Origin: Scenedesmus sp. PABB004
Lineage: Eukaryota
Direction: 5' to 3'
Assembly (NCBI GenBank): GCA_014905635.1
Contig: JABVCE010000041.1
Span: forward strand, 62,001 to 126,000
Length of the DNA: 64,000 bases
The position numbers were made by a program, and so were the translations under genes. The notes under the pieces were generated by a model that saw only the letters and a program-made list of their open reading frames with translations, was not told the origin of the DNA and did not search any database. This document shows positions 24,901-44,692 of the stretch, piece by piece (the first letter of the stretch is position 1; the number at the start of each line of letters is the position of its first letter).

Positions 24901-26667
24901 GCAACAACTCACTGACCGGTGCGTGCGTGTGTGCGTGCGCTTGTGTACATGTGTGTGTGTGTGTGTGGGGGGGGGGGGGGGCGGCAGCGGCAGCGGCAGT
25001 GACGGCGCGCAGAGCACCGCGCCGGCCGCGCCGCTGGCCGCCGAGCGCCCGCGGCTCGCCGCCGCGCCCCGTCAGGCGGCCTGCCGCCGAGCCTCGTCAA
25101 CGGCAGCGCGCCGGGGCTCGTGGCGCTGGAGCTGCAGGGCAACGCCCTCACCGGCGGCCTGGAGCCGGGCGGCGGCACAGCAGGGACCGGCGGCGGCGGC
25201 GGCGGCCGCAAGCTGCTGCAGGGCGGAGGTGGCGGCGGCGCCGCGTGGGACGCACCAGACCTGACCTACCTGGACCTGTCACGCAACCAGTTCAGGGGTG
25301 CGCGGCGCGGCGCGCGGGGCGCGTGGGGCGCAGCGTGCGCGGGGCAGTGCGTGGCGCGCGGGGCGGCGCGGCGGCCACGCCCGCCTCCTGCCGCCCCCCC
25401 CTGCCGCCGCACGCGCGCGCGCAGGCCCGCTGCCGGCGTCGCTCGGCGCGCTGCCGGCGCTCGTGGTGCTGGACGTCTCGTCCAACGCGCTCACCGGCGG
25501 CCTCGCGCCCTTTGCCGACGCGCTGGTCCTCAACGCGAGCGGCGACGCGCCGGAGCTGCTCCAGCTCAACGCCTCCAACAACCGGCGCGTGCACCGCCTG
25601 CCTGCGCGCTGCGCACGCTGTGCCGCGCGCGCCGCGCACTGCCCGTGCCGCGCGCCGGCCCCACCAGGCCGAGGCCTGCCTCCCACGCCCGCCCCGGGGC
25701 GCCCCCAGGCTGAGCGGCAGCATCCCCGCCTCGCTCGCGTCGGCGCCGCTGCTCGACCCGGCGCGCGTCCAGCCGACGCGCAGGCGCGCGCACGCGAGCC
25801 GCGCCGGCCGCGACGCGGCCCGCCGCCGCCGGGCCCCGGTGCCCGGTGCCCCGGGCCCCACGCTCCCACGGCGGCTGCGTCCCCGCCCCGCAGGGCGCAG
25901 CCCGACCGGGTGCTGGACCTCTCCAACAACTCCCTCTCCGGCGCGCTGCCGGCCTGGCTCGTCACCGCGCCCGCGTCCGTGGCGGAGGCGTGCGGGCAGC
26001 GCTGCGGCGTGGACGTGGCGCTCAACGGCAGCGACATGGCGCTCACTTGCCCGCCGCCGGGCGCGCTGCAGCTCACGCCCAGCACGGCGGCATTCCTGCA
26101 GCGGGCGGGGCTGGGCTGCGTCGACGCGGCCGGCGATAAGGCGCGACGCGGCGGCCGGGTGGCGCCCCGCGGCGCCGCGCGCGCGCGGCCCGGCGCCGCC
26201 ACGCCGCCTCCCGCCCCCGCCCGTCGCGCTGCGTGCAGGTCAACCTGCTGGCCACCGCCAGCGGCCCGGCCCCGCCACCCGCCGCGCCCGGGCCCGCCGG
26301 CGGCCAGGATCCTCGCACCGACGGCGCGGCCGCGGCGCAGCAGCCCAGCGGCGGCGGCGGTGGCCGCGGCGGCGGCCTCGCGCCGGGGGCCATCGCTGGC
26401 ATAGTCATCGGCGCCGTGGCGGGCGCGGCCCTCCTGGCTGGCGCGGCGGCGCTGGGCGCGCGCCGCCTGCGCAAGCACGCCGCGGGCTGGCGCAAGGAGG
26501 AGCTGGGCGGCGGCCCGCACGGCGCGGCGCTCGACGACGAGTTTGGCATGACGCCGGCGCCAGGCGCCGGGCGGGGCTCTGGTGGCGGCGACACGTATGC
26601 GCACACGCCGTACGAGAGTGCCCAGGCGAGCATCGAGATGCTCAGCAGCCGCAAGGACGCGGCGTGA
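21954..26667 (+). CDS. Leucine-rich-repeat receptor-like protein (signal peptide, N-terminal beta-sandwich, Cys cap, plant-type LRRs, TM, short tail, no kinase), paralog 1
   Basis: Signal peptide MRPHAVAWRGGAAALLVLCCCARAVA. Many LxxLxLxxNxLtGxlP repeats (LGNLTALRTLDLAFNALG, LTYLHVGNNALTGGLP, LVVLDVSSNALTGGL, VLDLSNNSLSGALP). TM LAPGAIAGIVIGAVAGAALLAGAAALGA followed by RRLRK. Stop at 26667. Confidence 0.9.
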
Positions 26668-26862
26668 GCTGCGGCGAGGCAGGGGGCGGGGGTGGTGGGG
26701 CACGCTTGCGCGCGTCAGGTTCAGTTGCTGCGGTTGAGCAGGGCGCTTGCGCGCGCCGGGAAAGCTGCGAGCCTGAGGAGTCTGCTGGGCTGCGCAAGGC
26801 GGGCTGTGCTTGCTGCTGCAGCTTGCGGCTTCTGCGCTGCACGCGGGCGGGTGTGCGCAGTA

Positions 26863-29800
26863 GTGTGAAAAGCAGGAGCCGGTTACCACCAGCGCCGTCG
26901 GCGTGTCGCCGCCCAGTCCAGGGCAGCAGCTGCGCCGCTCGTTTCAAACCAACTGCAGCAGCCAGCTGCTGCGCCGCCGGGGGCTGCGCTTGTGCAACGC
27001 GCCGGATCCCAGCCGGCAGCCAGCCACAAAGATCCAAACCCACACGCTCAGCCGGGCAGCGCTCACAGGGCAGCACGCCGCGGCAAATAGATGAGGGAAG
27101 CGCTCTCACACGCAGCGCTGCGTTAGAGTGGGGTGAGCGGGCGAGAGGAAGCGAGGCACTCGCGCAGCCGCGGAAGGGGCATTCGCGCCTAAGGAAGGTG
27201 AGCCAAAGCAGCAGAGGAGGAAGCACTGCAACTGAACTGATATGTAGCAGCCAAGCCCAAGAGGATGGAGGGCAGGGTGAGCCATGTATGAGGGGTGCGC
27301 GCAGGCAGGCAAAAGCAAAAACAATCGCATCATATCACAGTGCGGGCGGCGCGCAGCTGCCGTTTGTTCAAACACGCGCTCACAGCGCGGGGAGGGTGAT
27401 GTCGCTGTACAGCTTGGAGCCCACCACCTGGAACATGCTCACGTAGTCGCCGTCCAGCTCGCTGCGCGCCAGCTTGCAGCTGCCGTCGCCGAGCAGCACA
27501 AACACCTCGCACTCGGACGAGGCGGAGCACGCCGCGAGGCAGGCATTGCGGCTGGAGCCGGTCAGCGTGGTGCCGACCTGCACGCCCACGCTGGTCTGCG
27601 CGCTGCTGCGCAGCACGTAGTCCGCGCCCCCGCCGACCTTGAAGCCTAGCGTGGAGGAGCCCGCGTCCTCGTTGAACACCTGGCAGGTGGAGGTCGCGGC
27701 CGCCCAGCGGTACATGATGCAGGCGTCGGCGGCCTTGCAGCGGTCCTGGCAGGCGGCCACGTCGGTGGCGGCGGTCGTGGGCGCGACCCAGGCAGACTCG
27801 TCGCCGAGGTTGAGGATGTCAGCGCTCACGTCCACCAGCTGGTCCAGGCACTGCTGCACCTGGCCGGCGCGGCGGCGCGAGGTCTTGCCCGACGCGCAGG
27901 GCGTGCAGGCCTGGGTGCTGTCGGCGCCGCCGGACGCGTAGCTGCCGTAGCCGCACTGCGCGCAGGCGGTGGAGCTGGCGGTGTCGTAGCCAAAGCCGGC
28001 CTGGCAGATGGAGCAGTCGCCGGCGACGGTGGACTCGTCCTCCTGGGTGGTGAAGCCGGTGGCACACATGGTGCAGTTGGTGGGGTCGGCCTGGCCGGCC
28101 ACGCCGCCGGCGGACCAGGAGCCCTTGTCGCAGGGCACGGGCACGGCGCCGGCGCCCAGCATCCAGCCGGCCTGGATGACGCAGTCCGTGACGGCTGTGG
28201 CGCCGGTGCTGTTGGTGGTGCGGCCAGCAATGCAGGGCGTGCAGGCGTCGCGCGAGAGGCCGGCGCTCCAGCTGCCGACGGCGCACACGGTGGGCAGGGT
28301 GTTGGTCATGCCCCAGCCGGGCTTGACCTTGCAGTCAAGCTCGCTGGTGTAGGTGGCGTTGGCGGCCAGGGGCGTGGAGGTGAGGAAGTCCAGCGTGTAG
28401 GTGTCCTGGGCGCAGGGCTGGCAGCGGCTGTTGGCCACCGCGGGGCGCGCCTCGGAGTCGCCGTAGGTGTTCTGCTCGCACTTGACCGCCACCAGGGAGG
28501 GCGTGGTCTGGGCCAGGCCCCAGCCCGCAGGCACGAGGCAGGCGTCCTTGGACACGGCGCCGGTGTCAGCGGTGATCAGGCCCGTGCCGCACGCCACGCA
28601 GGGGTTGCGGTTCCAGTCGGCCTTGTACGAGCCGACCGCGCACTCGGTGATGGCGGACGCGCCGTCCAGGAGCTCCCAGCCGGGGGGCGCCATGCAGAGG
28701 GCGGCGCCGGTGGCGGTGTCATCCTTGGTGCGCCAGCCTGGCGGGCAGCGGGCGGCGGGCGAGGCGCGGGCGGGCGTCGGGCGCGGGCCACGCAGGGCAG
28801 AGCGCCGCGGCAGCAGGCGAGCAGAGCGCCGCTGCGCGCAGGCCGGGCGCGCGCGGGCGTGCGCGCAGCGCTGCGCGTGCAGCAGCGCGGCGCTCACCGT
28901 TGGGGCAGGGCGTGCAGGAGGTGATGTCGGCCTCGGCGTCGTTGTACGAGTCGGCAGGGCAGGGCGCGGCGCTGGTGGAGGAGCTCTTGTAGTAGCCGCG
29001 CACGGCCAGGGTGCACGCGGCGGCGCTGGACGAGCCCTCCGCCGCGGTGGTGAGGCCGTCGGGGCACTTGGTGCACGCGTCGGCGTTGTTGAGGCCGCTG
29101 GTGTAGGTGCCCTTGGGGCACGTCTTGCCCGTGGACTTGTCAACGTAGCTGCCGGCGGGGGCCAGGCAGGCGCTGGAGTTGGTGGAGCCGGTGCCCGTGG
29201 TGGTCAGCCCGCTGCCGCACTTCTGGCAGTCGGCCTGGTTGCCGCCGGCGTTGTACGTGCCGACCGGGCACAGGCGGCCCACGAATGAGGTCTTGCCGTC
29301 GGCGCCCTTGGCGGTCGTGCGGCCGTAGCCGGGCGTGGTGAAGCACTGCGACTGCGACTTGGCGCCGGCGAAGGCGGTGGACAGGCCGGAGGGGCAGTCC
29401 GTGGCGCCGTTGGTGGGGTTCACGCGGGCATCGCCGCCCAGGCAGTACTGGCCGGCGGCGCACGGGGTGCACGCGCCGGTGCCGTTGAACGCAAAGCCGG
29501 GCGCGCAGTCTGCGAGAGGCGGGAGGGGGCAGGGCAGGCGCGGGTGAGCCCGGGCAGCGGCGGCAGGCTGCAGCGCGGGTGACGCCCGGCCAGCGCGCGG
29601 TCACCGCCCAGCTGCCAGCGCGGCGCTGGCGCAGCGGATCCACTCACCGCAGGTCTTGGACGCGCCGTCGCGGCGCAGGCGGTAGCCGGTGGCGCAGGTG
29701 GAGCAGACCAGCTCGGAGCGGCGGGTGCCGGGGATGCGCTGGTTGCGGCACGCGGTGCACGCGGCGTTGACGCGGGTGCAGTCGGGCTTGGCCTGGAGCA

Positions 29801-30647
29801 GCTCGCGGGCGGGGAGGCCGTCGATCTCGTCCAGGACGAAGCGGGAGCTCGCGCTGGCGCTGGCGGCTGCCAGCGCCAGGAGCGCGGCCACGCAGAGCAG
29901 CTTGGCGCTCATGGCGACTCCTGGATGCCTAAGCTTGGATTGAGGGGCGCTAGAGGTCGGCGAGCGTGTTGGGCAGCGCGGCTTGGCGGTGGCCTCGCGG
30001 TGTTGAAGGTCGCTGAGTGCGCGTCTATGCTCGGGCGGGCAGGCTGAGAGGCTGTTGGCGATGCCGGGGCGCAGCGGAGCTTAAGTAGCGGCCGGGCGGC
30101 GCCGATGCACGGCGCAATTCACGCAGTTCGCGAAGACGTGATTGGTGGGACACCCTGCAGTTCACTATGATGCCGGGCGCCCGGAGCGCGAATTCTCAGT
30201 GCGCGGCTCGCGGCGCGCGCCAGGTGGTGCAGGAGGTGGACAGAGAGCTGTAGCGGCCATCTGCGCGGCACTGCGGCCGCGCCAGGCGCCGGGCGGGGCG
30301 CGGCCACGGCCATCTCTCATCTTCCGGGCGCGCGCGCCTGGGAAGAGCGGCCGAGGCGGGCGGAGCTGGCCCAGATCTGCTCACAGCACTGTAAGCATCC
30401 TATCGCGCCAGGCTGGAGCGCCTGCAGGGGGGAGTAACCGCGCCGCCGAGCGCGGTCGCTGCCGCGCTCAGCGCCGCCCCCGGCGGCGTTCAGCCGCCCG
30501 CGCAAGCACCCTGAGACCACGCCCAGCGACCAGGCGCGTACGGTGCGGCGTCACGGGCACCGGCGGGGAGGCAGGCGCGGGCGCGCGGAAGCTCTCGGCG
30601 CACACGCTCGCAGCGGCGCGCGCAGCTTCCGGCGGCAGGCAGAGCGC
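26863..30647 (-). repeat. Left arm of a ~3.8-kb near-perfect inverted repeat
   Basis: Reverse complement of 37674-41460. Paired coordinates sum to 68323 (e.g. ATG 29912/38411, stop 27380/40943), and the ORF track lists mirrored near-identical ORFs. Confidence 0.98.
27380..29912 (-). CDS. Secreted Cys-rich protein (744 aa): CxxCPxG ephrin-receptor-like/GCC2-GCC3 repeats plus two C-terminal PAN/apple-like modules; copy 1
   Basis: Exons 29912-29648, 29509-28898 and 28737-27380 (2235 nt, in frame). Signal peptide MSAKLLCVAALLALAAASASA. Repeats such as CPVGTYN..CQKCGSGLTT..GST.SSAC.APAG.Y. PAN-like ACQDRCKAADACIMYRW..CQVF and ACLAACSASSECEVFV..CKL. Strong C-ending codon bias. Confidence 0.9.
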
Positions 30648-30709
30648 TGCCACAACTCTTGGTTACCCCAGAACGCCAAACTGCAGGGATTCCCGCATTC
30701 AAGGCACGT

Positions 30710-33592
30710 TCAATAGCCTTGCGGGTAGTAGCCGTGCGGCGGGGCGTGCGCGCCCGGCAGCACGTAGACGACCTGTGGCTGCTGGTGCTGTGGCGGCTGA
30801 TGGTACTCGGGCAGGTGCCCCTGCTGCTGCCCTGGCGGCAGCTGGTACGCCGGCGCACCGAGCGGCTGCAGCACCAGCTGCGGCACCTGCTGCGGCGCCG
30901 GCTGCAGCACAAAGCCCTGCGGCTGCTGCAGGTAGTAGGCCTGCGTCGCGGGCTGCTGCGCCGGCGCAGGCTGATAGAACGTGGGCTGCTGCTGCGCCTG
31001 GTGCAGCTCCTGCTGCGCCTGCTGCTGCTCCTGCTGCACGCGCGCCACGTCCGTCGAGGTGGGCGGCCGCACCACGTGAGAGGGCAGCCGGATGCCTGCC
31101 CTCCACAGCGTCACGCGCTCCCGCACCTCCTCCCGTGGGTCTGTGGGGTGCAACGGCACGCGCCGCGCCGGCGGCGCCGGGCCCGCTGCCGCTGGCCCCG
31201 CTGGCTCTGCCGGCTCCAGCGGGCTGCCGCCCGAGTCCTGCCCTGCGCCTGACGGCGGGCCCAGCTGCTGCTGCGGCCGCTTGGCCAGCTCCGAGTCCTC
31301 CCCAGCAGCCACGTCCCGCAGCGCGTCCGGCGGCAGCGGCGGCGGCGCCGCCCAGTCCACTGCCGGTGACGGCGCCGCCTCTGCGATGCGTGCCATGGCT
31401 TCCTCCGCGGCCGCCGCCTCGCGCGCCGCTGCGCCGACCCGCGCAGCGAGCCACTGCTGGACGGCTCGATCGTACGCCTGCGGGGCGTGCACACGTGGCG
31501 TTGGCTGGCGCCCCTGCGGCGCTGGCGCGCGCGCTAGCCCCGTCAGCAGCCACAGGGGCCCTGGCCCACCTGCACCGCCTGCGTGACGTCCGGGCCCAGA
31601 GCTCCCGCAGCGGCCAGGAAGGCGGCGGGCGCGCGGCCGTGCGGCGCCATGGCGATCAGGCGCTGCGCGGGCGGCAGCGCCGCCGGCGCCGCCGCCTGAT
31701 CCGCCGCCGCCTGCCTCTGCGTGCCCGCCGCTGCGCCGCCCCTGGACAGGGCGTGCAGGGATGCCAGGCGCGCGGCGGCCTCGGACTGCGTGGCCTGGCG
31801 CTTGGCCGCGCTGGCGGCCGCGGCGCCGCCGGCTGCAGGCCCGCCGCCAGCGCGCTTGATGGGCCGCCGGAGGCTGCTGCCGACGGGCCTGCCGCTGCCG
31901 CCCGTGCCAGCCGCTGCCGCTGCTGCCGGCGAGCCCGCGACCGCAGCGGGCTTGTGTGCCGCGCCGACCGCGGCCGCGCCGACCGTGGCCGCGCCAATCG
32001 CGGCCGCGCCAGCGCCGCTGCTGCCGGCCGCCGCAGCGCCGCCCAGAGCGGCGCGCGCGGCAAGCTCCGTCCGGGCCGGCCTGACGTGGCGAATGTCGCC
32101 CGTGAGCTGCAGCTCCTCCACCGTGCGCTTGACCGCCAGCGTCACCCTGCGCTTGTACGTGGCGCTCAGCTTCACGCCCCCGCCGAGGGCCAGCGTGCCG
32201 CCCGGCGCCGCGTAGCGCTCGCCCACGCCGCCGCTGCGCGCCTCGTCCCAGGCGCGCGTCACCGCGGCGGCGGCCGCTGCCAGGCGCGCGTGGGGCTGGC
32301 TCGCCAGGTCCTCGACCTCCCGGCTGATGGTCGTGCCGGCCAGCATCGCTGGCGACGGGCTCAGCACCGCCAGCACCTGGCGGCACGCCCCGCGCGGCGG
32401 GCGTGAGCAGCGGCGGCGCGCTGCACGCGCGCCGCCAGCGCCCCACGCGCGAGCGCCGCGCGGCCGCGCGCAGCCTCACCGCGAGCAGCTGCAGCGCCAT
32501 GGTGACCTGCCTGTCCTTGCGCGCCTCCGCCAGCCAGGCCTCCAGCACGTCGAGCAGCCGGCTGCTGGTCAGCTGCCCGCGTACTGCCGCCGACGCCGCC
32601 GGCGCGGCGCGGCCGTGCGCGCCGCCCGGCGCCGCGGCGGCGCCGTAGCTCGCAGCCAGCGCGGCCAGCGCGCCGCTGCGCGCCAACCACGAGCTCAGCG
32701 AGCCCAGTAGGCCCAGGAAGCGGCCGCCGCTGCGCGCGCGCGCGCGCGCGCGGGCGGCACGCAGCAGCAGTGAGGACGGCGGCCGTCCGGGCTGGCGCGC
32801 GGCGCGGTGCAGGCAGGCGCCCCGCGCGCGGCTCGCTCACTTGGTGATCGCGCCCGTGGTCGGATCCACCACCCGCGCCAGCGCCTGCTTCTGCGCCGTG
32901 ATGGCCGCCGCCGCTGCGAGGCAGGTGGGGCCCAGCCCCGAGCCGCCCGGCTGCGCTCCTGCCGCCGCCGAGTCGGGCGGCGGCGGCAGGCCCGGCGCGC
33001 CGGGGGCGCCGGGGGCGCCGCCGGCGTCCTGCTCCACCGCCTTGCTGGCGCGCCGCGCCGCGGCGGCGCTGTACGTGCGCAGCCGCGCGCGCAGCTCGCT
33101 GAACACGGCGCGCACCCTGGGCGCGCTGCAGCGCACCGCCGCCGCCAGGCCCGACACCTGCGGCCGGTCCAGCGCGTCCACGAGCGCAAACACGCCCACC
33201 AGCAGCCGCTGCGCCGCCTCGTCGTCGCGCTCGCCCGCGTCGCTGTCGTCGCTGGACGCGCTGTCGTCGCTGTCGCCGCCGAGCGGGCGGCCGCCGCCGG
33301 CGCCCGGCGCCGCGGGCCGCCGCGCGGCGGGCTCATCCAGCGCGGGGCTGAGCGCGCGCGGCGCGTCGGGGCCCAGCGGGTCCTGCCCGGCGAGCGCCGT
33401 CTGCAGCGCCGCCAGCCGCGCCAGCTCCGCCGCGCTCGCCGCCGCCTCGTCGAGCTGCTGCTCCAGCTCCTCCCGCGCCGCTGCCGTCGGCAGCCCCGCC
33501 GCCAGCGGCCGCAGGCCGCCCCCCAGGCGCGCCACCGCCTCCGCGAGCGCCTGCGGGCCGGGCGGCGCGCCGGAGGGCTCCGGCGGCACCAT
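30710..33592 (-). CDS. LUMINIDEPENDENS/PNUTS-like nuclear protein (divergent homeodomain-like segment plus TFIIS N-terminal domain)
   Basis: Homeodomain-like VFALVDALDRPQVSGLAAAVRCSAPRVRAVFSELRARLR. TFIIS-N-like [44 protein letters not shown]-terminal DWAAPP..VAAGEDSE..SPLEP..RRVPL block like LD/PNUTS, then a Q/P/Y-rich tail. Three introns. Confidence 0.7.
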
Positions 33593-33645
33593 CGCCGCAG
33601 AGCAGCGGCGCCGCTGCTGCTGCCGCGGCGGCGACGGCGCCGCAC

Positions 33646-33787
33646 GCGCGCCGGTGCGCCGATCGGGCCGCTCTGAGATGAGCTATCTGCGGCGCGGCGG
33701 CGGCGGACGGGCTGCGCGCCGGTGCGCCGATTGGGCCGCTCTGAGATGAGCTATCTGCGGCGCGGCGGCGGCGGACGGGCTGCGCGC
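33646..33787. repeat. 68-bp tandem duplication in the divergent promoter region
   Basis: GGTGCGCCGAT(C/T)GGGCCGCTCTGAGATGAGCTATCTGCGGCGCGGCGGCGGCGGACGGGCTGCGCGC starts at 33653 and again at 33721, with one mismatch. Confidence 0.95.
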
Positions 33788-34044
33788 TGCGCCGCCGTTA
33801 CTTGGCGGCGACGCCCGGCCGCGGGCCGCAGCCCGCCGGACCCGTCTCGCCACATACACAGACTCGCCTGTGCCAACTCGCCCGGGTGTGCTAGAGCAGC
33901 TGCGCCTGCAGCTGCACGGCCGATCTCCCTGCCCGCAGCCCCCAGCGCGCCCTGGGCGGCCCACGTCCGCGCGCTGACGTCCACCAGGCGGCCGGCGATG
34001 CTGCGCAGGACAGCCGGGCCCCGCTGAGCCGCGGGAGCGCGGCG

Positions 34045-37000
34045 ATGATGTGCAGCCGGGCCTACGCCGGCCGCGCGGCGGGTCGGGTGCGCAATTTCGG
34101 GGGCGCGGCGCGACCGCAGCGCATGCCCCAATCCCCACGCCGCGCGGCGGCGCCATGCGCGGCGGCGCGGCGGCGCCATGCGCGGCGGCGCGGCGGCGCG
34201 AGCCCGCGCCGACGGGCGCCGCCCCACCAACCCGCCGCGCCGCGCCGCCGCCCGCAGGCGCCGCGCTGCCCCGGCTGCGGCCATGGCGCCGCCGCCGTTG
34301 CGCCCGCGCGCCGGCGCGGCGCGGCCGCGGCTGCGTACAGCGGCGCGCTGGCGCCGCTGCCGGCGGGCGAGCCGCTGTGGGGCGGCCCCCGGGCGCCCGA
34401 GCAGCGGCAGCCGCAGCAGCAGCAGCAGCGGCAGCAGGAGCCGCTGCCGGCGCACGCCTGCGCGACCTACGAGCAGCTGAGCGAGCTGCTGGAGGCGCGG
34501 CGCGGCGGCGCGGCGCCGCGCGACGTGACCGCGGCGCTGCACCGCGCCTCGCTGCTTGCGCGGCCGGCGGCGCGGCGCGGCGGTGCTCACGCGCCCGCCG
34601 ACGCGGCGGCCGCGCGGCGGCTCGTGGCGGCGTGCTTGGGCGCGCTGCTGCGCGAGAGCGCCGGCGTCACGCCGCACGACCTCTCCAACTGCCTGCTCTC
34701 GCTGGCCGTCCTGTGCCGGCCGGGCGGCCCCGCCGCGGGCGCGATGAGCAGCGGCGGCGCCGCCCCCGGCGCGGGGGCGGGTGCTCGAATGCAGCAGGCG
34801 GCGCAGCAGGCGGCGCAGCTGGCGGTGCAGCAGGCGGCGCAGCAGGCGGCGCAGCAGGCGGGCGGCGGCGGTCTGTCGGCGCTCATCGCGCCGGCCAGCA
34901 GCCGTGCGCTGGAGCAGCTGCTGGTGGCCGCGGCGCCGCAGCACCAGCTGCAGCAGCTCCTGGAGGTGGCGGCCTGCGACGCGGCGCTGGCGGGCGCGGA
35001 GGCGCACCAGCTGGTGAACGTGCTGTGGGGCCTGGCCGCGCTGCGGCTTCGCCCCGCGCCGCACGTGGCGCAGGCGCTGCTGGCGGCCAGCCAGGAGCAC
35101 CTCGAGCGCCTCGAGCGCCTGGGCGGTGCGCGTGCGCGCACGGGCGGCCCGCAGCAGCGCGCGCCCAAGCTGCTGAGCCAGCTGCTGTGGGCGGTCGCCA
35201 CGCTGCAGCTCGCGCCGCCGCCGGGCTGGGCCGCCGCGTACTGGCGCGCCAGCGGCGGCCAGCTGGCAGCGTATGGCGGGCAGGACGTGTCGAACACTGC
35301 CTGGGCGGCGGCGAGCCTGGGCGCGGCGCCGCCGGCCGACTGGCTGGCGCGCCTGTGCGGGCAGGCCGCGGCGGTGGCGGGAACGCTCAACGGGCAGGGC
35401 CTCGCCAACACGCTGTGGGGCCTGGCGGTGCTGGCGCCCGACGCGGTGCCGCCGGCGACGCTGCTGCGCCTGCTCGAGGCGGCCACGGCGGCGGCGGCGC
35501 GCCTGGACGGCCAAAACCTGGCCAACCTTGCCTGGGCCGCGGCGCGCTGCCTGGCAGCGCCCGGGCGCGAGCAGGACGGCGGCACCGCCCGCGCCGCGCG
35601 GGGCCAGCTGCAGGCGCTGCTGGCCGCGTACGCGCCGCTGGCGCCGCGCCTGGCCCCGCGCGACTGGGCAAATGTGCTGTGGGCGTGCGGCCGCCTGCGG
35701 CTGGCGCCGGGCGAGGCGCTGCTGGCGGCGCTGTGGCGGCGCAGCCCCGCGGGCTTCAGCACGTCCCTCAACCCCCACAGCCCCACGCAGGCCGCGGGCG
35801 CGTGGTCGCCGCAGGCCCTGGCGAGCTGCGCGTGGGGCTGCGCCCGGCTGGGCGCGGCGCCCACCCGCGTGTGGCTGAGCGGCTTTGAGGCGGCCAGCGT
35901 CTGCCAGCTGCACGCGTTCCAGGACCAGCAGCTCGCCAACACGCTCTGGGCGCTGAGCCGGCTGGGCCACGCCCCGAGCGCCGGCTGGCTGTCCCAGTTC
36001 TGGCGCCACGCCGCGCGGCTGCCGCGCGCGCTGGCGCGGGCCGGCGCGGCGGCAGCTGCCGCGCCGCCCGCGGGCAGCGGTGGCGAGGAGCTGCCGGCGC
36101 TGCGGCAGCAGGCCGAGGCGGCGGCGCAGCACGTGGTCATGGTGCTGCAGGCGGCCGCCCGGCTTCGGCAGCCGCTGCCCAGCGGCTGGGCGGAGGAGGC
36201 CGCCGCCGCGCTCGCATCGGCAGCCGCACAGCCGGGCGTGTCGCCGAGGACGCTCGCCGCGGGCGTGCACGCCCTGTCACGGCTGGGCCTTGCCGAGGGC
36301 GGCAGCGGCAGCCTGCTGCTCGCGTGCGCCGGCCTCGACCTGCGGGCACCCGGCGGTGCAGCGCCGCCCCGCCTGGGCGCGAAGGATGCGCTGCAGCTGC
36401 TGGGCGCGCTGCCCGGCCTGGCGCTGGAGCGACAGCACGCCGCCGCCGCGGCCGCGCAGCTGCTGGCGCGCTGCCACGAGCTGCTGCGCCTTGGCGGCTT
36501 CACCCCGAGCCATCTCGTGCAGGTCAGCGCGGCAGCGGCGCGGGCGGCACGCTCCCTGCAGCCTCCCGCCGGCGCTGGCTTGACTGGCGACCTGACGGCC
36601 GCGCTGCAGTTGTGCTGTCACGAGCTGTCAGCGCCGGAGCTGGCGCAGGCGCTGGCGGCGGTGGCATCGCTGACGAGCGGCAGCGCCGCCGCCGGCAGGC
36701 GGCGCGCGGCTGGCTTTGCTGCCTCCGGGGGCGCCGCCGCGCGGCAGGCGCTGGGCGCCATGTCGGCTGGGCAGCTCGCGGCCGCCGCGGCCGGCCTGGG
36801 GGCGCTGGGGTACGCTCCCGACGCCGCCTGGCTGGAGGCGCTGCTGGTGCACAGCAGCTGCCAGCTGGATCGCTGCAGCGACGGCCAGCTGGTGCAGCTG
36901 CTGCATGGCGCCGCGGCCCTGCTGCGCAACTGCGGTGCGGCGGCGGGCGACGGCGGCACGCGCCACGCCGCGGCAGCATGGCTGCAGGCGTGGCAGGCCG

Positions 37001-37638
37001 AGACACGGCACCGGCTGCCCGGCTGGAGCCCCAGCCATCTCCTGGGCGCAGCGGCAGCGCAGCAGCGCATGCTGGCACTGATCCAGCCGCAGCAGGCGGC
37101 GCAGCAGCACGACCAGGCAGCAGCAGCACCAATTATAGCGCTGCTTGGCAGGCGGCTGCTGCCGTCGCCCGGGTGGCGGCACGCGTTCCTGGCGGCAAGC
37201 GCCGCGGCACTGCCGCAGCTTTCGGCGGCGGAGCTGGTGGCGCTGCTGGGGGCCGTGCGGGCCCTGGGCCTCGCGCCTGGGCCAGTGTGGTGCGCGGCGC
37301 TGGCGAGTGAGGCGGCCGGCCGGCGTGGGGCACTCGGCGCCCGGGCGCTGCGGCTGCACCACGTCGGCCTGCTCGCGCATGGCCTGCACAAGCTGGGGCA
37401 CGCAGTGCCGGCTGCACAGCGAGCGGCGCTGCTGGAGTGCGCGGCGGACGCCGCCGGCGCGGCCTCGCCGCAGCAGCTGCGCCAGGCGCTGCAGCTGTTG
37501 CGCCTGGCGGCCTGGTCGCCTGGCGAAGCCTGGGCGCAGCGCGTGTGCGGCACGCGGGAAGCGCTGCCGGCAGCTCTAGCGGCTGCCAGGCTTGAAAGCA
37601 GCTGGCTCCGGTCCTCTGAGCGCCTGCTCAGGATGTAA
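34045..37638 (+). CDS. Octotricopeptide-repeat (OPR) organellar RNA-binding protein, apparently intronless (~1170-1197 aa)
   Basis: One long ORF with repeated ~38-aa units: YGGQDVSNTAWAAASLGAAPPADWL, LNGQGLANTLWGLAVL, WSPQALASCAWGCARLGAAPTRVWL, FQDQQLANTLWALSRLGHAPSAGWL. TGTAA overlaps the stop. Start codon uncertain (34045, 34048 or 34122). Confidence 0.88.
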   Translation: MMCSRAYAGRAAGRVRNFGGAARPQRMPQSPRRAAAPCAAARRRHARRRGGASPRRRAPPHQPAAPRRRPQAPRCPGCGHGAAAVAPARRRGAAAAAYSGALAPLPAGEPLWGGPRAPEQRQPQQQQQRQQEPLPAHACATYEQLSELLEARRGGAAPRDVTAALHRASLLARPAARRGGAHAPADAAAARRLVAACLGALLRESAGVTPHDLSNCLLSLAVLCRPGGPAAGAMSSGGAAPGAGAGARMQQAAQQAAQLAVQQAAQQAAQQAGGGGLSALIAPASSRALEQLLVAAAPQHQLQQLLEVAACDAALAGAEAHQLVNVLWGLAALRLRPAPHVAQALLAASQEHLERLERLGGARARTGGPQQRAPKLLSQLLWAVATLQLAPPPGWAAAYWRASGGQLAAYGGQDVSNTAWAAASLGAAPPADWLARLCGQAAAVAGTLNGQGLANTLWGLAVLAPDAVPPATLLRLLEAATAAAARLDGQNLANLAWAAARCLAAPGREQDGGTARAARGQLQALLAAYAPLAPRLAPRDWANVLWACGRLRLAPGEALLAALWRRSPAGFSTSLNPHSPTQAAGAWSPQALASCAWGCARLGAAPTRVWLSGFEAASVCQLHAFQDQQLANTLWALSRLGHAPSAGWLSQFWRHAARLPRALARAGAAAAAAPPAGSGGEELPALRQQAEAAAQHVVMVLQAAARLRQPLPSGWAEEAAAALASAAAQPGVSPRTLAAGVHALSRLGLAEGGSGSLLLACAGLDLRAPGGAAPPRLGAKDALQLLGALPGLALERQHAAAAAAQLLARCHELLRLGGFTPSHLVQVSAAAARAARSLQPPAGAGLTGDLTAALQLCCHELSAPELAQALAAVASLTSGSAAAGRRRAAGFAASGGAAARQALGAMSAGQLAAAAAGLGALGYAPDAAWLEALLVHSSCQLDRCSDGQLVQLLHGAAALLRNCGAAAGDGGTRHAAAAWLQAWQAETRHRLPGWSPSHLLGAAAAQQRMLALIQPQQAAQQHDQAAAAPIIALLGRRLLPSPGWRHAFLAASAAALPQLSAAELVALLGAVRALGLAPGPVWCAALASEAAGRRGALGARALRLHHVGLLAHGLHKLGHAVPAAQRAALLECAADAAGAASPQQLRQALQLLRLAAWSPGEAWAQRVCGTREALPAALAAARLESSWLRSSERLLRM

Positions 37639-37673
37639 ACACCCCTGAAGTCACAACCTGGGCGTGCCCGTGC

Positions 37674-40600
37674 GCGCTCTGCCTGCCGCCGGAAGCTGCG
37701 CGCGCGCGGCTGCGAGCGTGTGCGCCGAGAGCTTCCGCGCGCCCGCGCCTGCCTCCCCGCCGGTGCCCGTGACGCCGCACCGTACGCGCCTGGTCGCTGG
37801 GCGTGGTCTCAGGGTGCTTGCGCGGGCGGCTGAACGCCGCCGGGGGCGGCGCTGAGCGCGGCAGCGACCGCGCTCGGCGGCGCGGTTACTCCCCCCTGCA
37901 AGCGCTCCAGCCTGGCGCGATAGGATGCTTACAGTGCTGTGAGCAGATCTGGGCCAGCTCCGCCCGCCTCGGCCGCTCTTCCCAGGCGCGCGCGCCCGGA
38001 AGATGAGAGATGGCCGTGGCCGCGCCCCGCCCGGCGCCTGGCGCGGCCGCAGTGCCGCGCAGATGGCCGCTACAGCTCGCTGTCCACCTCCTGCACCACC
38101 CGGCGCGCGCCGCGAGCCGCGCACTGAGAATTCGCGCTCCGGGCGCCCGGCATCATAGTGAACTGCAGGGTGTCCCACCAATCACGTCTTCGCGAACTGC
38201 GTGAATTGCGCCGTGCATCGGCGCCGCCCGGCCGCTACTTAAGCTCCGCTGCGCCCCGGCATCGCCAACAGCCTCTCAGCCTGCCCGCCCGAGCATAGAC
38301 GCGCACTCAGCGACCTTCAACACCGCGAGGCCACCGCCAAGCCGCGCTGCCCAACACGCTCGCCGACCTCTAGCGCCCCTCAATCCAAGCTTAGGCATCC
38401 AGGAGTCGCCATGAGCGCCAAGCTGCTCTGCGTGGCCGCGCTCCTGGCGCTGGCAGCCGCCAGCGCCAGCGCGAGCTCCCGCTTCGTCCTGGACGAGATC
38501 GACGGCCTCCCCGCCCGCGAGCTGCTCCAGGCCAAGCCCGACTGCACCCGCGTCAACGCCGCGTGCACCGCGTGCCGCAACCAGCGCATCCCCGGCACCC
38601 GCCGCTCCGAGCTGGTCTGCTCCACCTGCGCCACCGGCTACCGCCTGCGCCGCGACGGCGCGTCCAAGACCTGCGGTGAGTGGATCCGCTGCGCCAGCGC
38701 CGCGCTGGCAGCTGGGCGGTGACCGCGCGCTGGCCGGGCGTCACCCGCGCTGCAGCCTGCCGCCGCTGCCCGGGCTCACCCGCGCCTGCCCTGCCCCCTC
38801 CCGCCTCTCGCAGACTGCGCGCCCGGCTTTGCGTTCAACGGCACCGGCGCGTGCACCCCGTGCGCCGCCGGCCAGTACTGCCTGGGCGGCGATGCCCGCG
38901 TGAACCCCACCAACGGCGCCACGGACTGCCCCTCCGGCCTGTCCACCGCCTTCGCCGGCGCCAAGTCGCAGTCGCAGTGCTTCACCACGCCCGGCTACGG
39001 CCGCACGACCGCCAAGGGCGCCGACGGCAAGACCTCATTCGTGGGCCGCCTGTGCCCGGTCGGCACGTACAACGCCGGCGGCAACCAGGCCGACTGCCAG
39101 AAGTGCGGCAGCGGGCTGACCACCACGGGCACCGGCTCCACCAACTCCAGCGCCTGCCTGGCCCCCGCCGGCAGCTACGTTGACAAGTCCACGGGCAAGA
39201 CGTGCCCCAAGGGCACCTACACCAGCGGCCTCAACAACGCCGACGCGTGCACCAAGTGCCCCGACGGCCTCACCACCGCGGCGGAGGGCTCGTCCAGCGC
39301 CGCCGCGTGCACCCTGGCCGTGCGCGGCTACTACAAGAGCTCCTCCACCAGCGCCGCGCCCTGCCCTGCCGACTCGTACAACGACGCCGAGGCCGACATC
39401 ACCTCCTGCACGCCCTGCCCCAACGGTGAGCGCCGCGCTGCTGCACGCGCAGCGCCGCGCGCACGCCCGCGCGCGCCCGGCCTGCGCGCAGCGGCGCTCT
39501 GCTCGCCTGCTGCCGCGGCGCTCTGCCCTGCGTGGCCCGCGCCCGACGCCCGCCCGCGCCTCGCCCGCCGCCCGCTGCCCGCCAGGCTGGCGCACCAAGG
39601 ATGACACCGCCACCGGCGCCGCCCTCTGCATGGCGCCCCCCGGCTGGGAGCTCCTGGACGGCGCGTCCGCCATCACCGAGTGCGCGGTCGGCTCGTACAA
39701 GGCCGACTGGAACCGCAACCCCTGCGTGGCGTGCGGCACGGGCCTGATCACCGCTGACACCGGCGCCGTGTCCAAGGACGCCTGCCTCGTGCCTGCGGGC
39801 TGGGGCCTGGCCCAGACCACGCCCTCCCTGGTGGCGGTCAAGTGCGAGCAGAACACCTACGGCGACTCCGAGGCGCGCCCCGCGGTGGCCAACAGCCGCT
39901 GCCAGCCCTGCGCCCAGGACACCTACACGCTGGACTTCCTCACCTCCACGCCCCTGGCCGCCAACGCCACCTACACCAGCGAGCTTGACTGCAAGGTCAA
40001 GCCCGGCTGGGGCATGACCAACACCCTGCCCACCGTGTGCGCCGTCGGCAGCTGGAGCGCCGGCCTCTCGCGCGACGCCTGCACGCCCTGCATTGCTGGC
40101 CGCACCACCAACAGCACCGGCGCCACGGCCGTCACGGACTGCGTCATCCAGGCCGGCTGGATGCTGGGCGCCGGCGCCGTGCCCGTGCCCTGCGACAAGG
40201 GCTCCTGGTCCGCCGGCGGCGTGGCCGGCCAGGCCGACCCCACCAACTGCACCATGTGTGCCACCGGCTTCACCACCCAGGAGGACGAGTCCACCGTCGC
40301 CGGCGACTGCTCCATCTGCCAGGCCGGCTTTGGCTACGACACCGCCAGCTCCACCGCCTGCGCGCAGTGCGGCTACGGCAGCTACGCGTCCGGCGGCGCC
40401 GACAGCACCCAGGCCTGCACGCCCTGCGCGTCGGGCAAGACCTCGCGCCGCCGCGCCGGCCAGGTGCAGCAGTGCCTGGACCAGCTGGTGGACGTGAGCG
40501 CTGACATCCTCAACCTCGGCGACGAGTCTGCCTGGGTCGCGCCCACGACCGCCGCCACCGACGTGGCCGCCTGCCAGGACCGCTGCAAGGCCGCCGACGC

Positions 40601-41460
40601 CTGCATCATGTACCGCTGGGCGGCCGCGACCTCCACCTGCCAGGTGTTCAACGAGGACGCGGGCTCCTCCACGCTGGGCTTCAAGGTCGGCGGGGGCGCG
40701 GACTACGTGCTGCGCAGCAGCGCGCAGACCAGCGTGGGCGTGCAGGTCGGCACCACGCTGACCGGCTCCAGCCGCGATGCCTGCCTCGCGGCGTGCTCCG
40801 CCTCGTCCGAGTGCGAGGTGTTTGTGCTGCTCGGCGACGGCAGCTGCAAGCTGGCGCGCAGCGAGCTGGACGGCGACTACGTGAGCATGTTCCAGGTGGT
40901 GGGCTCCAAGCTGTACAGCGACATCACCCTCCCCGCGCTGTGAGCGCGTGTTTGAACAAACGGCGGCTGCGCGCCGCCCGCACTGTGATATGATGCGATT
41001 GTTTTTGCTTTTGCCTGCCTGCGCGCACCCCTCATACATGGCTCACCCTGCCCTCCATCCTCTTGGGCTTGGCTGCTACATATCAGTTCAGTTGCAGTGC
41101 TTCCTCCTCTGCTGCTTTGGCTCACCTTCCTTAGGCGCGAATGCCCCTTCCGCGGCTGCGCGAGTGCCTCGCTTCCTCTCGCCCGCTCACCCCACTCTAA
41201 CGCAGCGCTGCGTGTGAGAGCGCTTCCCTCATCTATTTGCCGCGGCGTGCTGCCCTGTGAGCGCTGCCCGGCTGAGCGTGTGGGTTTGGATCTTTGTGGC
41301 TGGCTGCCGGCTGGGATCCGGCGCGTTGCACAAGCGCAGCCCCCGGCGGCGCAGCAGCTGGCTGCTGCAGTTGGTTTGAAACGAGCGGCGCAGCTGCTGC
41401 CCTGGACTGGGCGGCGACACGCCGACGGCGCTGGTGGTAACCGGCTCCTGCTTTTCACAC
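37674..41460 (+). repeat. Right arm of the ~3.8-kb near-perfect inverted repeat
   Basis: Reverse complement of 26863-30647 with scattered substitutions and a small indel near 37705. Confidence 0.98.
38411..40943 (+). CDS. Secreted Cys-rich/PAN protein (744 aa); copy 2
   Basis: Exons 38411-38675, 38814-39425 and 39586-40943. Protein matches copy 1 except N>D (SRNAC vs SRDAC, base 27547/40776). Confidence 0.9.
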
Positions 41461-42189
41461 AACTGCGCCCACGCCGCCCGCGCGCTGAGCCAGCGCACGC
41501 GCTCAGCCAGCCAGCGGCCAGCGCGCCGAACGCCGTCCGCGCGCTGCAGCGGCGGCCCCCTCACGTACAGCAGCCTCAACATCATCTCAGCTTCAGCCCG
41601 GCAGGCCAACGCGCGCGCACCACGGGGGCCACCTGCGGGCCCGTGCGCTGGCTGCGGCCAGCACGGCCAGCGCGCGCTCGGCTCGGGGCGCCAGCGGCGC
41701 GGAAGCTTTCAGCAGCTTGGAACCGCGCGGGGAGCCTTACTGACGATCGGGCGGCACTGGCGCTGCGCTGGGGCAGCCTCCTCGGCGGCGCCGCGGTCGG
41801 CGCGCAGCCAACCGCCGCAGCAGAACCACTCTGGTCTGCAGCGCGCGCGCGGCGTGGCCGCCGGCCGACAGCGCCACGCCTCCCGGCCAGTGCCACTCCC
41901 GCGGCCACCACGCGCCCGTCCCGCGCACGGCCCGCTGCGCCGCGGTCGATGGTGCACTCGCCACCCCCGCAGCAGCGCCGAACGCAGTGGTGAGCGGCTC
42001 GCCAAACCGCGGGACGCACGCGCACTGGAGGGAGCGCTCTCTGCCAGGCGGCCGGGGCGCAGCGGCGCCAGGCGGCAGCAGGGCGCGCCGAAACAGCAAG
42101 CGTTCGCTCGCCGCCGGTGCCGCCCGCCGCCCGCACGCTGCAGACCGCCGCCGCCGCAGCCACCCGGGCTCCATTCACCTCTCATCATC

Positions 42190-44661: not shown

Positions 44662-44692
<31 letters not shown>

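What the first reader, a model, noticed from the sequence alone, without database searches (positions are those of the whole stretch)
26863..41460. 14.6-kb gene-bearing palindrome: two ~3.8-kb near-identical inverted arms around a cleanly invertible 7-kb two-gene spacer
Seen: 26863-30647 is the reverse complement of 37674-41460. Each arm is a complete cassette: ~740 bp upstream, a 3-exon Cys-rich gene, and ~520 bp downstream. By eye I found only about ten differences, including synonymous changes at 27647/40676 and 28196/40127, one N/D change at 27547/40776, a few non-coding SNPs and a small indel at the inner end. The spacer holds exactly two divergent genes whose stops lie 62 bp (30710) and 35 bp (37638) from the arms. 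Inference: crossover between the arms would flip the spacer without breaking any gene, giving two isomers, as with plastid IR flip-flop or yeast IR-mediated inversions. Arm-to-arm gene conversion could keep the copies homogeneous while doubling the dose of a strongly codon-biased secreted protein.
Basis: partly seen in the sequence, partly recalled or inferred. Interest (0 to 1): 0.78.

Follow-up and report, generated by a model that had tools for sequence, protein, structure and literature searches.

The report
Young inverted gene duplication in alga
A green-alga chromosome carries two near-identical, mirror-image copies of a secreted cysteine-rich protein gene on either side of two unrelated genes; this is a real but ordinary kind of recent duplication, and nothing yet shows that the middle piece flips.

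Summary
Arms 26839-30647 and 37674-41485 (3809 and 3812 nt) are inverted copies differing by 11 substitutions and three 1-bp indels. They lie around a 7026-nt unique spacer and between unique flanks. Each arm carries a complete 3-exon gene for a 744-aa secreted protein with Ephrin_rec_like repeats and a PAN domain. That protein is identical to an NCBI protein of Scenedesmus sp. PABB004. The spacer holds two intact, divergently transcribed genes.

Best reading: a young inverted segmental duplication of one gene cassette. The geometry would allow a harmless inversion. No data here could show flip-flop or arm-to-arm gene conversion.

Contigs of about 98.5%-identical strains from three metagenome runs carry the arm-2 letter at 5 of 5 polarisable arm differences. 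So the arm-1 letters are derived and all sit on one arm. That argues against a crossover in most of the arm since they arose.

Whether those strains also carry two copies stayed equivocal, so conversion is neither shown nor excluded. The GC3 of 0.97 is normal for a 78.5% GC genome.

This is a new member of a known kind, of low to moderate interest.

The parts
26839..30647 (.). Arm 1 of the inverted repeat (3809 nt, GC 0.724)
37674..41485 (.). Arm 2 of the inverted repeat (3812 nt, GC 0.726), the reverse complement of arm 1
27380..29912 (-). Arm-1 gene. Three exons (29912-29648, 29509-28898, 28737-27380). The 744-aa product has a signal-peptide-like N-terminus, 5 Ephrin_rec_like stretches and a PAN_1 domain plus a second weak PAN-like stretch. 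It carries N690 and is identical to P0001.
38411..40943 (+). Arm-2 gene. Same three-exon model (38411-38675, 38814-39425, 39586-40943). It has three CDS differences from the arm-1 copy: two synonymous and D690.
30648..37673 (.). Unique spacer, 7026 nt, GC 0.796. Its two ends show no colinear homology to each other.
30710..33592 (-). Spacer gene A. Multi-exon, 858-aa hypothetical protein (P0048) with a Q/P-rich C-terminus. No Pfam family and no homologue outside this strain in the one search made. Its stop lies 62 nt from arm 1.
34045..37638 (+). Spacer gene B. A single open frame of about 1197 aa encoding a helical-repeat protein, 47% identical to a Tetradesmus obliquus protein that UniRef names 'RAP domain-containing'. 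It is colinear with that protein up to the C-terminus. No Pfam family. Its stop lies 35 nt from arm 2.
33646..33781 (.). Two head-to-tail copies of a 68-nt unit (99% alike), lying between the divergent start codons of genes A and B
   Evidence: family D5
26140..26667 (+). Last coding stretch of the left-flank LRR / membrane-anchor-like gene. Its stop at 26665-26667 is 171 nt from arm 1, and it converges on the arm-1 gene.
42190..45638 (+). Right-flank LRR-type gene. It has a signal-peptide-like start at 42190, with LRR-like frames further on, and lies in tandem orientation downstream of the arm-2 gene. The extent is approximate.
   Evidence: (D2)

Best explanation
This is a real, evolutionarily young inverted segmental duplication in the nuclear genome of a very GC-rich Scenedesmus. 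One complete cassette was copied in inverted orientation about 7 kb away. The cassette holds about 735 nt upstream, a 3-exon gene for a secreted Ephrin_rec_like/PAN cysteine-rich protein, and about 541 nt downstream. The copy landed on the far side of two unrelated, divergently transcribed genes.

The result is <-cys1 <-geneA | geneB-> cys2->, so all four genes read outward from about 33.8 kb. Both copies are intact and probably both functional (inferred). The arm sequence begins 62 and 35 nt after the stops of genes A and B, so it probably also supplies their 3' ends (inferred).

Since the duplication the arms have been diverging on their own: 8 substitutions in the 3.75-kb interior, with extra changes packed at both edges. 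Homologous exchange between the arms (inversion or conversion) is physically possible but is not needed to explain the data.
For: Structure.
- The arms are 99.63% alike over 3812 columns, with sharp ends, a unique spacer and unique flanks running more than 20 kb on each side.
- The arms differ by 11 substitutions and three 1-bp indels. An artefactual copy built from the same reads would not be expected to do so (inference).

Genes.
- The arm-1 gene model equals annotated protein P0001.
- Pfam gives Ephrin_rec_like at 108.9 bits (cut-off 23.1, 5 stretches) and PAN_1 at 28.8 bits (cut-off 21.4).
- Only 3 CDS differences separate the copies: 2 synonymous and N690D, at a column that varies among 12 family members.
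- Both spacer genes are whole.

Age.
- Arm-to-arm divergence is 0.29% (11/3773).
- Divergence from the related strains is 55/3505 = 1.57% (X1) and 31/2513 = 1.23% (X2) over arm contigs. It is 1.6-4.4% over four spacer contigs (table 8, the listed records only).

Independent divergence.
- At 5 of 5 polarisable differences the related strains carry the arm-2 letter (table 3).
- Seven of the 8 interior differences have A/T on arm 1 where arm 2 has G/C.
Against: - Contig depths hint that the related strains may also carry two copies. In X2 the flank-bridging contig is at depth 3.5 against 6.9 for the arm contigs next to it. In X1 the arm contigs are at 6.4-12.1 against 5.8 for the spacer-side contig. 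Contigs of both runs break near the inner arm edge. If that is so, the duplication predates the strain split, and the low arm-to-arm divergence would need gene conversion.
- Differences are packed at both arm edges: 4 events in the outer 24 nt and 2 in the inner 34 nt, against 8 in 3750 nt between. Conversion that spares the edges predicts this. Error-prone synthesis at duplication breakpoints predicts it as well.
- The 7:1 asymmetry of A/T letters between the arms is odd for two copies mutating at equal rates (binomial about 0.07, my arithmetic). It could partly reflect consensus errors in one arm.
- No reads of the strain itself were seen, so both copy number and orientation rest on the assembly.
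Confidence: 0.55

Rival explanations
1. An older palindrome shared by related strains, whose arms are kept alike by arm-to-arm gene conversion (concerted evolution), as in sex-chromosome palindromes.
For: - The arms differ by 0.29% from each other but by 1.2-1.6% from the related strains' contigs.
- About 2:1 depth of arm contigs over flank or spacer contigs in X2, and partly in X1. Contigs break near the arm edges in both runs.
- Divergence is concentrated at the two arm edges.
Against: - No contig was seen to bridge spacer into arm 2. The only listed one there, X2 record 16, ends at 37664, 10 nt short of the arm. The right flank was not in the laid stretch.
- X1 record 1 runs unbroken from the left flank 1043 nt into the arm.
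- Depths of metagenome contigs are noisy, and two co-occurring strains would give the same picture.
- All 5 polarisable differences are derived on arm 1, so there has been no recent conversion at those sites.
Confidence: 0.3
2. An actively flipping segment. Crossovers between the arms invert the 7-kb spacer often enough that both isomers coexist in a culture or population, like plastid inverted-repeat flip-flop.
For: Geometry only. The 3.8-kb arms are 99.6% alike and inverted, whole genes lie in the arms and spacer, and identical arm sequence follows both spacer genes.
Against: - There is no observation of the second isomer, and no long reads were available.
- The five polarised derived letters, spanning 27358-30244, all sit on arm 1. 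Any odd number of crossovers in that 76% of the arm since they arose would have split them.
- No recombinase-like family was found in either spacer gene.
Confidence: 0.1
3. An assembly artefact: the cassette is single-copy and the second arm was created by mis-assembly.
For: - No reads of the strain were seen.
- The protein database holds only the arm-1 protein form (cluster of 1 sequence). No second, D690 form appeared among the 38 hits.
- The independent metagenome contigs did not show the spacer-to-arm-2 junction.
Against: - The arms differ by 11 substitutions and 3 indels, mostly transitions and not long-read-type errors.
- The palindrome has a 7-kb gene-bearing spacer and unique flanks of more than 20 kb on both sides, unlike fold-back chimeras.
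- All four neighbouring genes are intact at the junctions.
- The four junction flanks are mutually unrelated, so the arms cannot be alleles of one locus.
Confidence: 0.07

Closest known systems
Palindromic segmental duplications with a unique spacer, for example the gene-bearing palindromes of mammalian sex chromosomes (PMC6790999 and PMC13688818: search listing and abstracts only)
   Same: Two long, inverted, near-identical arms that carry whole genes, around a unique spacer. Such arms are substrates for arm-to-arm conversion and for inversion.
   Different: It is hundreds of times smaller (3.8-kb arms), autosomal-type context is unknown, and it sits in a green alga. Conversion is documented for those palindromes and is not shown here. 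Arm identity here (99.6-99.7%) is lower than I recall for the human Y palindromes (about 99.97%, recalled).
Inversion polymorphisms mediated by inverted repeats through non-allelic homologous recombination, such as the human X-linked FLNA-EMD region (recalled, no call)
   Same: A unique gene-bearing segment between inverted repeats of several kb can flip without breaking genes.
   Different: Both orientations have been observed there. Here only one orientation is known, and the phase of the derived letters argues against frequent exchange.
Plastid inverted-repeat flip-flop (established knowledge, recalled)
   Same: Inverted arms around a single-copy region; recombination gives two isomers; copy correction keeps the arms alike.
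   Different: That is an organelle genome at high copy number, with very active recombination and essentially identical arms. This is nuclear DNA with 14 arm differences, introns, and 72-80% GC.
Inverted duplications formed at double-strand breaks or by template switching during replication (PMC10622511 and PMC10766186: search listing and abstracts only)
   Same: A plausible way to form an inverted copy a few kb from its source. Changes are packed at the breakpoints.
   Different: No microhomology or priming inverted repeat at the junctions was established here. The mechanism of origin is inferred, not shown.
Mirror-ordered paralogue pairs in Chlamydomonas chromosome 4: CCP2-LCID ... LCIE-CCP1. 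The gene-number order was seen in passages of PMC12136973. That this is an inverted duplication is my recollection.
   Same: A green-algal nuclear locus where paralogous genes lie in mirrored order.
   Different: It is larger, holds several genes per arm, and the paralogues are more diverged. It was not examined here.

Membership tests
Palindromic (inverted) segmental duplication with spacer | Two long copies in inverted orientation with high identity | tested here: met
   3812 columns at 99.63%. It is the only inverted repeat of 120 nt or more in the window.
Palindromic (inverted) segmental duplication with spacer | Unique spacer and unique outer flanks (not a fold-back at a contig end) | tested here: met
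   The spacer is 7026 nt. Local alignment of the flanks beyond each edge scores within the shuffled range, or off-diagonal. The flanks carry different LRR genes.
Palindromic (inverted) segmental duplication with spacer | Both copies supported by sequencing data independent of the assembly | tested here: inconclusive
   Related-strain contigs bridge left flank into arm 1 (X1 record 1, X2 record 9) and reach arm 1 from the spacer side by only 5 nt (X2 record 14) to 32 nt (X1 record 6). No listed contig bridges spacer into arm 2. The depth ratio is suggestive only.
Palindrome homogenised by arm-to-arm gene conversion | Arms more alike within a genome than the same arm between lineages that share the duplication | tested here: inconclusive
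   Within the genome 0.29%; between strains 1.2-1.6%. Whether the other strains share the duplication is not settled.
Palindrome homogenised by arm-to-arm gene conversion | Conversion tracts seen as derived letters shared by, or moved between, the arms | tested here: not met
   At 5 of 5 polarisable differences the derived letter is on arm 1 only. The other differences (26841, 26854, 26862, 28196, 28867, 30422) could not be polarised.
Flip-flop invertible segment (isomers by recombination between inverted repeats) | Both spacer orientations present among molecules | not testable with these tools
   No long or raw reads of the strain were served. All three runs are short contigs.
Flip-flop invertible segment (isomers by recombination between inverted repeats) | Inversion would leave all genes intact | tested here: met
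   Whole genes lie in the arms and in the spacer, and the junctions are intergenic.
Site-specific invertible switch (recombinase plus short inverted sites) | A recombinase gene in or beside the invertible segment | tested here: not met
   Pfam finds no family in spacer gene A or gene B.
Ephrin_rec_like (PF07699) / PAN-domain secreted cysteine-rich proteins | Score above Pfam's curated cut-off for the domains | tested here: met
   For P0001, PF07699 scores 108.9 bits (cut-off 23.1, 5 stretches) and PAN_1 scores 28.8 bits (cut-off 21.4). Homologues at 42-52% identity occur in other Scenedesmaceae.
RAP-domain / FAST-kinase-like organellar RNA-binding proteins (spacer gene B) | A RAP (PF08373) or FAST (PF06743) domain | tested here: not met
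   No Pfam family was found in gene B or in its three closest homologues. The 'RAP domain-containing' label is a source's name for P0039. Distant hits carry PF06743 or PF08373.

The most novel reading that the evidence does not exclude
The palindrome is older than the split between this strain and the 1-2% diverged strains seen in freshwater metagenomes. In that case arm-to-arm gene conversion keeps its arms alike, sparing only the edges. It would be a miniature, autosomal-type counterpart of sex-chromosome palindromes in a repeat-poor (1.3%), 78.5% GC green-algal nuclear genome, and might also exist as two inversion isomers.
Probability: 0.3. Interest if true: 0.45.

Novelty: new member of a known kind. 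Interest (0 to 1): 0.25.

Why it matters
As it stands, this is a clean, well-delimited example of a recent inverted gene duplication in a compact, repeat-poor algal genome. It is useful for annotation, because the second copy seems to be missing from the protein set. It is also a caution for read mapping and assembly at this locus.

If the arms proved to be homogenised across strains, it would be a tractable small system for measuring nuclear gene conversion and repeat-mediated inversion in a green alga. Long-range PCR across a 3.8-kb arm would be enough. The concept itself is already well known from other eukaryotes.

Tried and rejected
- Whole genome of the window: not held, so no genome-wide census of such repeats and no depth analysis.
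- Runs: three metagenome contig sets only, and no RNA holder listed. Expression and 'dose' are therefore untested.
- The laid stretch was window:25000-37760, one arm plus the spacer, because the tool turns away stretches with a long repeat. The arm-2/right-flank junction was therefore not examined. Only 24 of about 1375 contig pieces and 40 of 76 'other letter' rows were shown, so 28196, 28867 and 30422 could not be polarised.
- Synteny in relatives: two scans of metagenome contigs, with the gene-B alignment A1 and with P0040, confirmed no relative. Which arm is the original therefore stays open.
- Eroded homology beyond the arm edges: none. The outer score of 12.5 compares with a shuffled mean of 12.4. 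The inner score of 18 equals the shuffled maximum but lies off the diagonal.
- Truncation of gene B by arm 2: rejected. Gene B aligns to its homologue up to residue 1381 of 1427.
- Algal TGTAA poly(A) signal to place 3' ends: only 3 occurrences on either strand in 26000-42500, one of them overlapping the gene-B stop. Not informative.
- Recombinase or transposase in the arms or spacer: no Pfam family beyond Ephrin_rec_like, PAN and TNFR-like.
- Earlier notes of this scan: none for this genome. A second look-up failed on a word limit and was not repeated.
- Literature: a search for 'PABB004' gave 15 papers, and neither of the two I opened mentions this locus. Searches for 'inverted duplication / gene conversion / Chlamydomonas / palindrome' and 'CCP1 CCP2 LCID inverted' found no description of a nuclear gene-bearing palindrome in a green alga. 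These few searches do not show that none is in print.
Full report
**1. Is it there?**

Yes. The repeat finder on 24000-44000 reports one long inverted pair, 26851-30623 / 37700-41472, 3773 nt without gaps. A scan of the whole window shows it is the only inverted repeat of 120 nt or more. My script counts 11 mismatches in the ungapped core. blastn extends the match to 3812 columns at 99.63%, with 11 mismatches and 3 gap openings.

A gapped alignment places the arms at 26839-30647 and 37674-41485, which are 3809 and 3812 nt. The spacer is 7026 nt and the whole structure 14,647 nt.

Beyond both edges homology stops. Local alignment of 400 nt outside each edge scores like shuffled sequence on the outer side. 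On the inner side the best match lies off the diagonal.

The differences are unevenly spread:
- Outermost 24 nt: three mismatches and a 1-bp indel.
- Innermost 34 nt: two 1-bp indels.
- The 3750 nt between: eight mismatches and no indel.

**2. What the arms carry**

On the minus strand of arm 1, three frames join through two GT..AG introns of 138 and 160 nt. The CDS is 29912-29648, 29509-28898 and 28737-27380. It encodes 744 aa with 55 Cys, a hydrophobic N-terminus that looks like a signal peptide (my reading of the sequence), and no obvious membrane anchor. The mirrored model on arm 2 (38411-38675, 38814-39425, 39586-40943) differs at three CDS positions: two synonymous and N690D.

A search with exon 3 found 38 proteins. 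The best, P0001, is 744 aa and is named 'Scube1 [Scenedesmus sp. PABB004]' by its source, on a contig of 189,091 nt. It equals my arm-1 model letter for letter. The next best hit is 52% identical, from another Scenedesmus. The family is common in Scenedesmaceae and in metagenomes.

Pfam gives 5 Ephrin_rec_like stretches (108.9 bits, cut-off 23.1) and PAN_1 (28.8 bits, cut-off 21.4). A second, weak PAN-like stretch covers residue 690. That residue's column varies among 12 aligned family members.

So the product is a secreted, cysteine-rich, probably wall- or matrix-associated binding protein. The domain content is shown; the role is inferred.

The strain's genome is reported as 39.8 Mb in 77 contigs, 78.5% GC and 1.31% repeats (PMC12571836, passages seen). 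This fits the window's 78% GC. It also makes the gene's GC3 of 0.97 unremarkable. Gene B has a GC3 of 0.91. The arms are less GC-rich (0.724 and 0.726) than the spacer and flanks (0.80).

**3. The spacer and flanks**

Gene A runs on the minus strand from ATG 33592 to the stop at 30710. It is the annotated 858-aa hypothetical protein P0048. It has no Pfam family, and the one search made found no homologue outside this strain.

Gene B runs on the plus strand from the first in-frame ATG at 34045 to the stop at 37638, about 1197 aa. It is a helical-repeat protein, 47% identical to a Tetradesmus obliquus protein that UniRef calls 'RAP domain-containing'. It aligns to that protein up to residue 1381 of 1427, so arm 2 has not truncated it. 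Pfam finds no family in it or in its three nearest homologues.

Between the two start codons lie two 68-nt tandem copies, 33646-33781.

The order is therefore <-cys1 <-A | B-> cys2->, all transcribed outward. The arm sequence starts 62 and 35 nt after the stops of A and B, so the arms probably supply both 3' ends (inferred).

The left flank ends with an LRR / membrane-anchor-like gene on the plus strand (stop 26665-26667). The right flank starts another LRR-type gene on the plus strand at 42190.

**4. Independent data**

No genome is held for the window. The look-up of sequencing runs listed three metagenome contig sets: X1 and X2 from one study, and X3 from another. No RNA holder was listed.

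I laid them on window:25000-37760, which is one arm plus the spacer, because the tool turns away long repeats. They hold a close relative of the window's organism.

| Region | Run | Other letters / nt laid | Divergence |
|---|---|---|---|
| Arm contigs | X1 | 55 / 3505 | 1.57% |
| Arm contigs | X2 | 31 / 2513 | 1.23% |
| Four spacer contigs | X1, X2 | per contig | 1.6-4.4% |

Two results matter.

First, at the arm differences 27358, 27547, 27647, 30222 and 30244 the relatives carry the arm-2 letter. X1 and X2 show this at all five sites, and X3 at the first three. So the arm-1 letters, including N690, are derived, 5 of 5. The remaining differences could not be polarised, because they were not covered or their rows were not shown. 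Seven of the 8 interior differences are A/T on arm 1 against G/C on arm 2. All known derived letters lie on one arm across 27358-30244. So no odd number of crossovers, and no conversion at these sites, has happened there since they arose.

Second, whether the relatives have two copies is unclear.
- For two copies: X2's flank-bridging contig (26714-26942) has depth 3.5, against 6.9 for the arm contig that follows it.
- For two copies: X1's arm contigs have depths of 6.4-12.1, against 5.8 for the spacer-side contig.
- For two copies: contigs of both runs break near the inner arm edge.
- Against, or neutral: X1's record 1 runs unbroken from 26707 to 27882 across the outer edge.
- Against, or neutral: no listed contig bridges the spacer into arm 2. 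X2 record 16 ends at 37664.
- Against, or neutral: metagenome depths are noisy, and two co-occurring strains would look the same.

**5. Reading**

The duplication itself is very probably real. The arms differ by substitutions, the spacer and flanks are unique and gene-bearing, every neighbouring gene is intact, and the four junction flanks are unrelated to one another.

The simplest history is a young, inverted, dispersed duplication of one cassette. If rates are alike (inference), the interior divergence of 0.21% against about 1.3-1.6% between strains puts its age at a fraction of the strain split.

The packed changes at both edges fit error-prone synthesis at the breakpoints. They fit equally well with conversion that spares the edges.

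But flip-flop and conversion remain possibilities that the available data could not test. The phase of the derived letters speaks against frequent exchange.

**6. Comparison and novelty**

Gene-bearing palindromic segmental duplications, arm-to-arm conversion and inversion mediated by inverted repeats are well known in mammals, birds, yeast and organelles. For this I saw only the listings and abstracts; the rest is recalled.

My searches found no description of this locus, nor of a nuclear palindrome of this kind in a green alga. They were few, and many journals are not in the library.

I file it as a new member of a known kind, with low to moderate interest. The boldest reading still open is an older palindrome homogenised by conversion and shared among strains. 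I give it about 0.3.

Noticed in passing
window 7440-9157 and 10652-12583 (minus-strand frames): An older tandem duplication about 3.3 kb apart, 67-74% identical at the DNA level. The frames read like fasciclin (FAS1)-type secreted proteins, which is my reading of the translation; no Pfam scan was run.
   Followed up: partly
window 33646-33781: Two head-to-tail copies of a 68-nt unit that differ at one base. They lie in the roughly 450-nt gap between the divergent start codons of spacer genes A and B and may be part of a shared promoter.
   Followed up: no
window 38411-40943 (arm-2 gene): The protein database holds the arm-1 protein form only (cluster of one sequence on one contig). No D690 form appeared among the 38 hits, so the arm-2 copy may be unannotated or modelled differently in the public record.
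   Followed up: partly
window 29709-29796 (exon 1 of the arm-1 gene): The related strains in X1 and X2 differ from the window at 11 listed sites within 88 nt. That is far denser than elsewhere in the arm. The signal-peptide/N-terminal region therefore evolves fast, or the alignment there is to a diverged allele.
   Followed up: no
window 26839-30647 and 37674-41485 against their surroundings: The arms are about 7-8 points lower in GC (0.72-0.73) than the spacer and flanks (0.80). Other GC dips in the window, at 8-14 kb and 50-54 kb, include the secreted-protein-like genes at 7.4-12.6 kb.
   Followed up: partly
window 27358-30244, arm 1 against arm 2: Seven of the 8 interior arm differences are A/T on arm 1 and G/C on arm 2. 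This is a one-sided GC-to-AT drift of one copy. It could reflect real asymmetric mutation (for example methylation of one copy) or consensus errors.
   Followed up: partly
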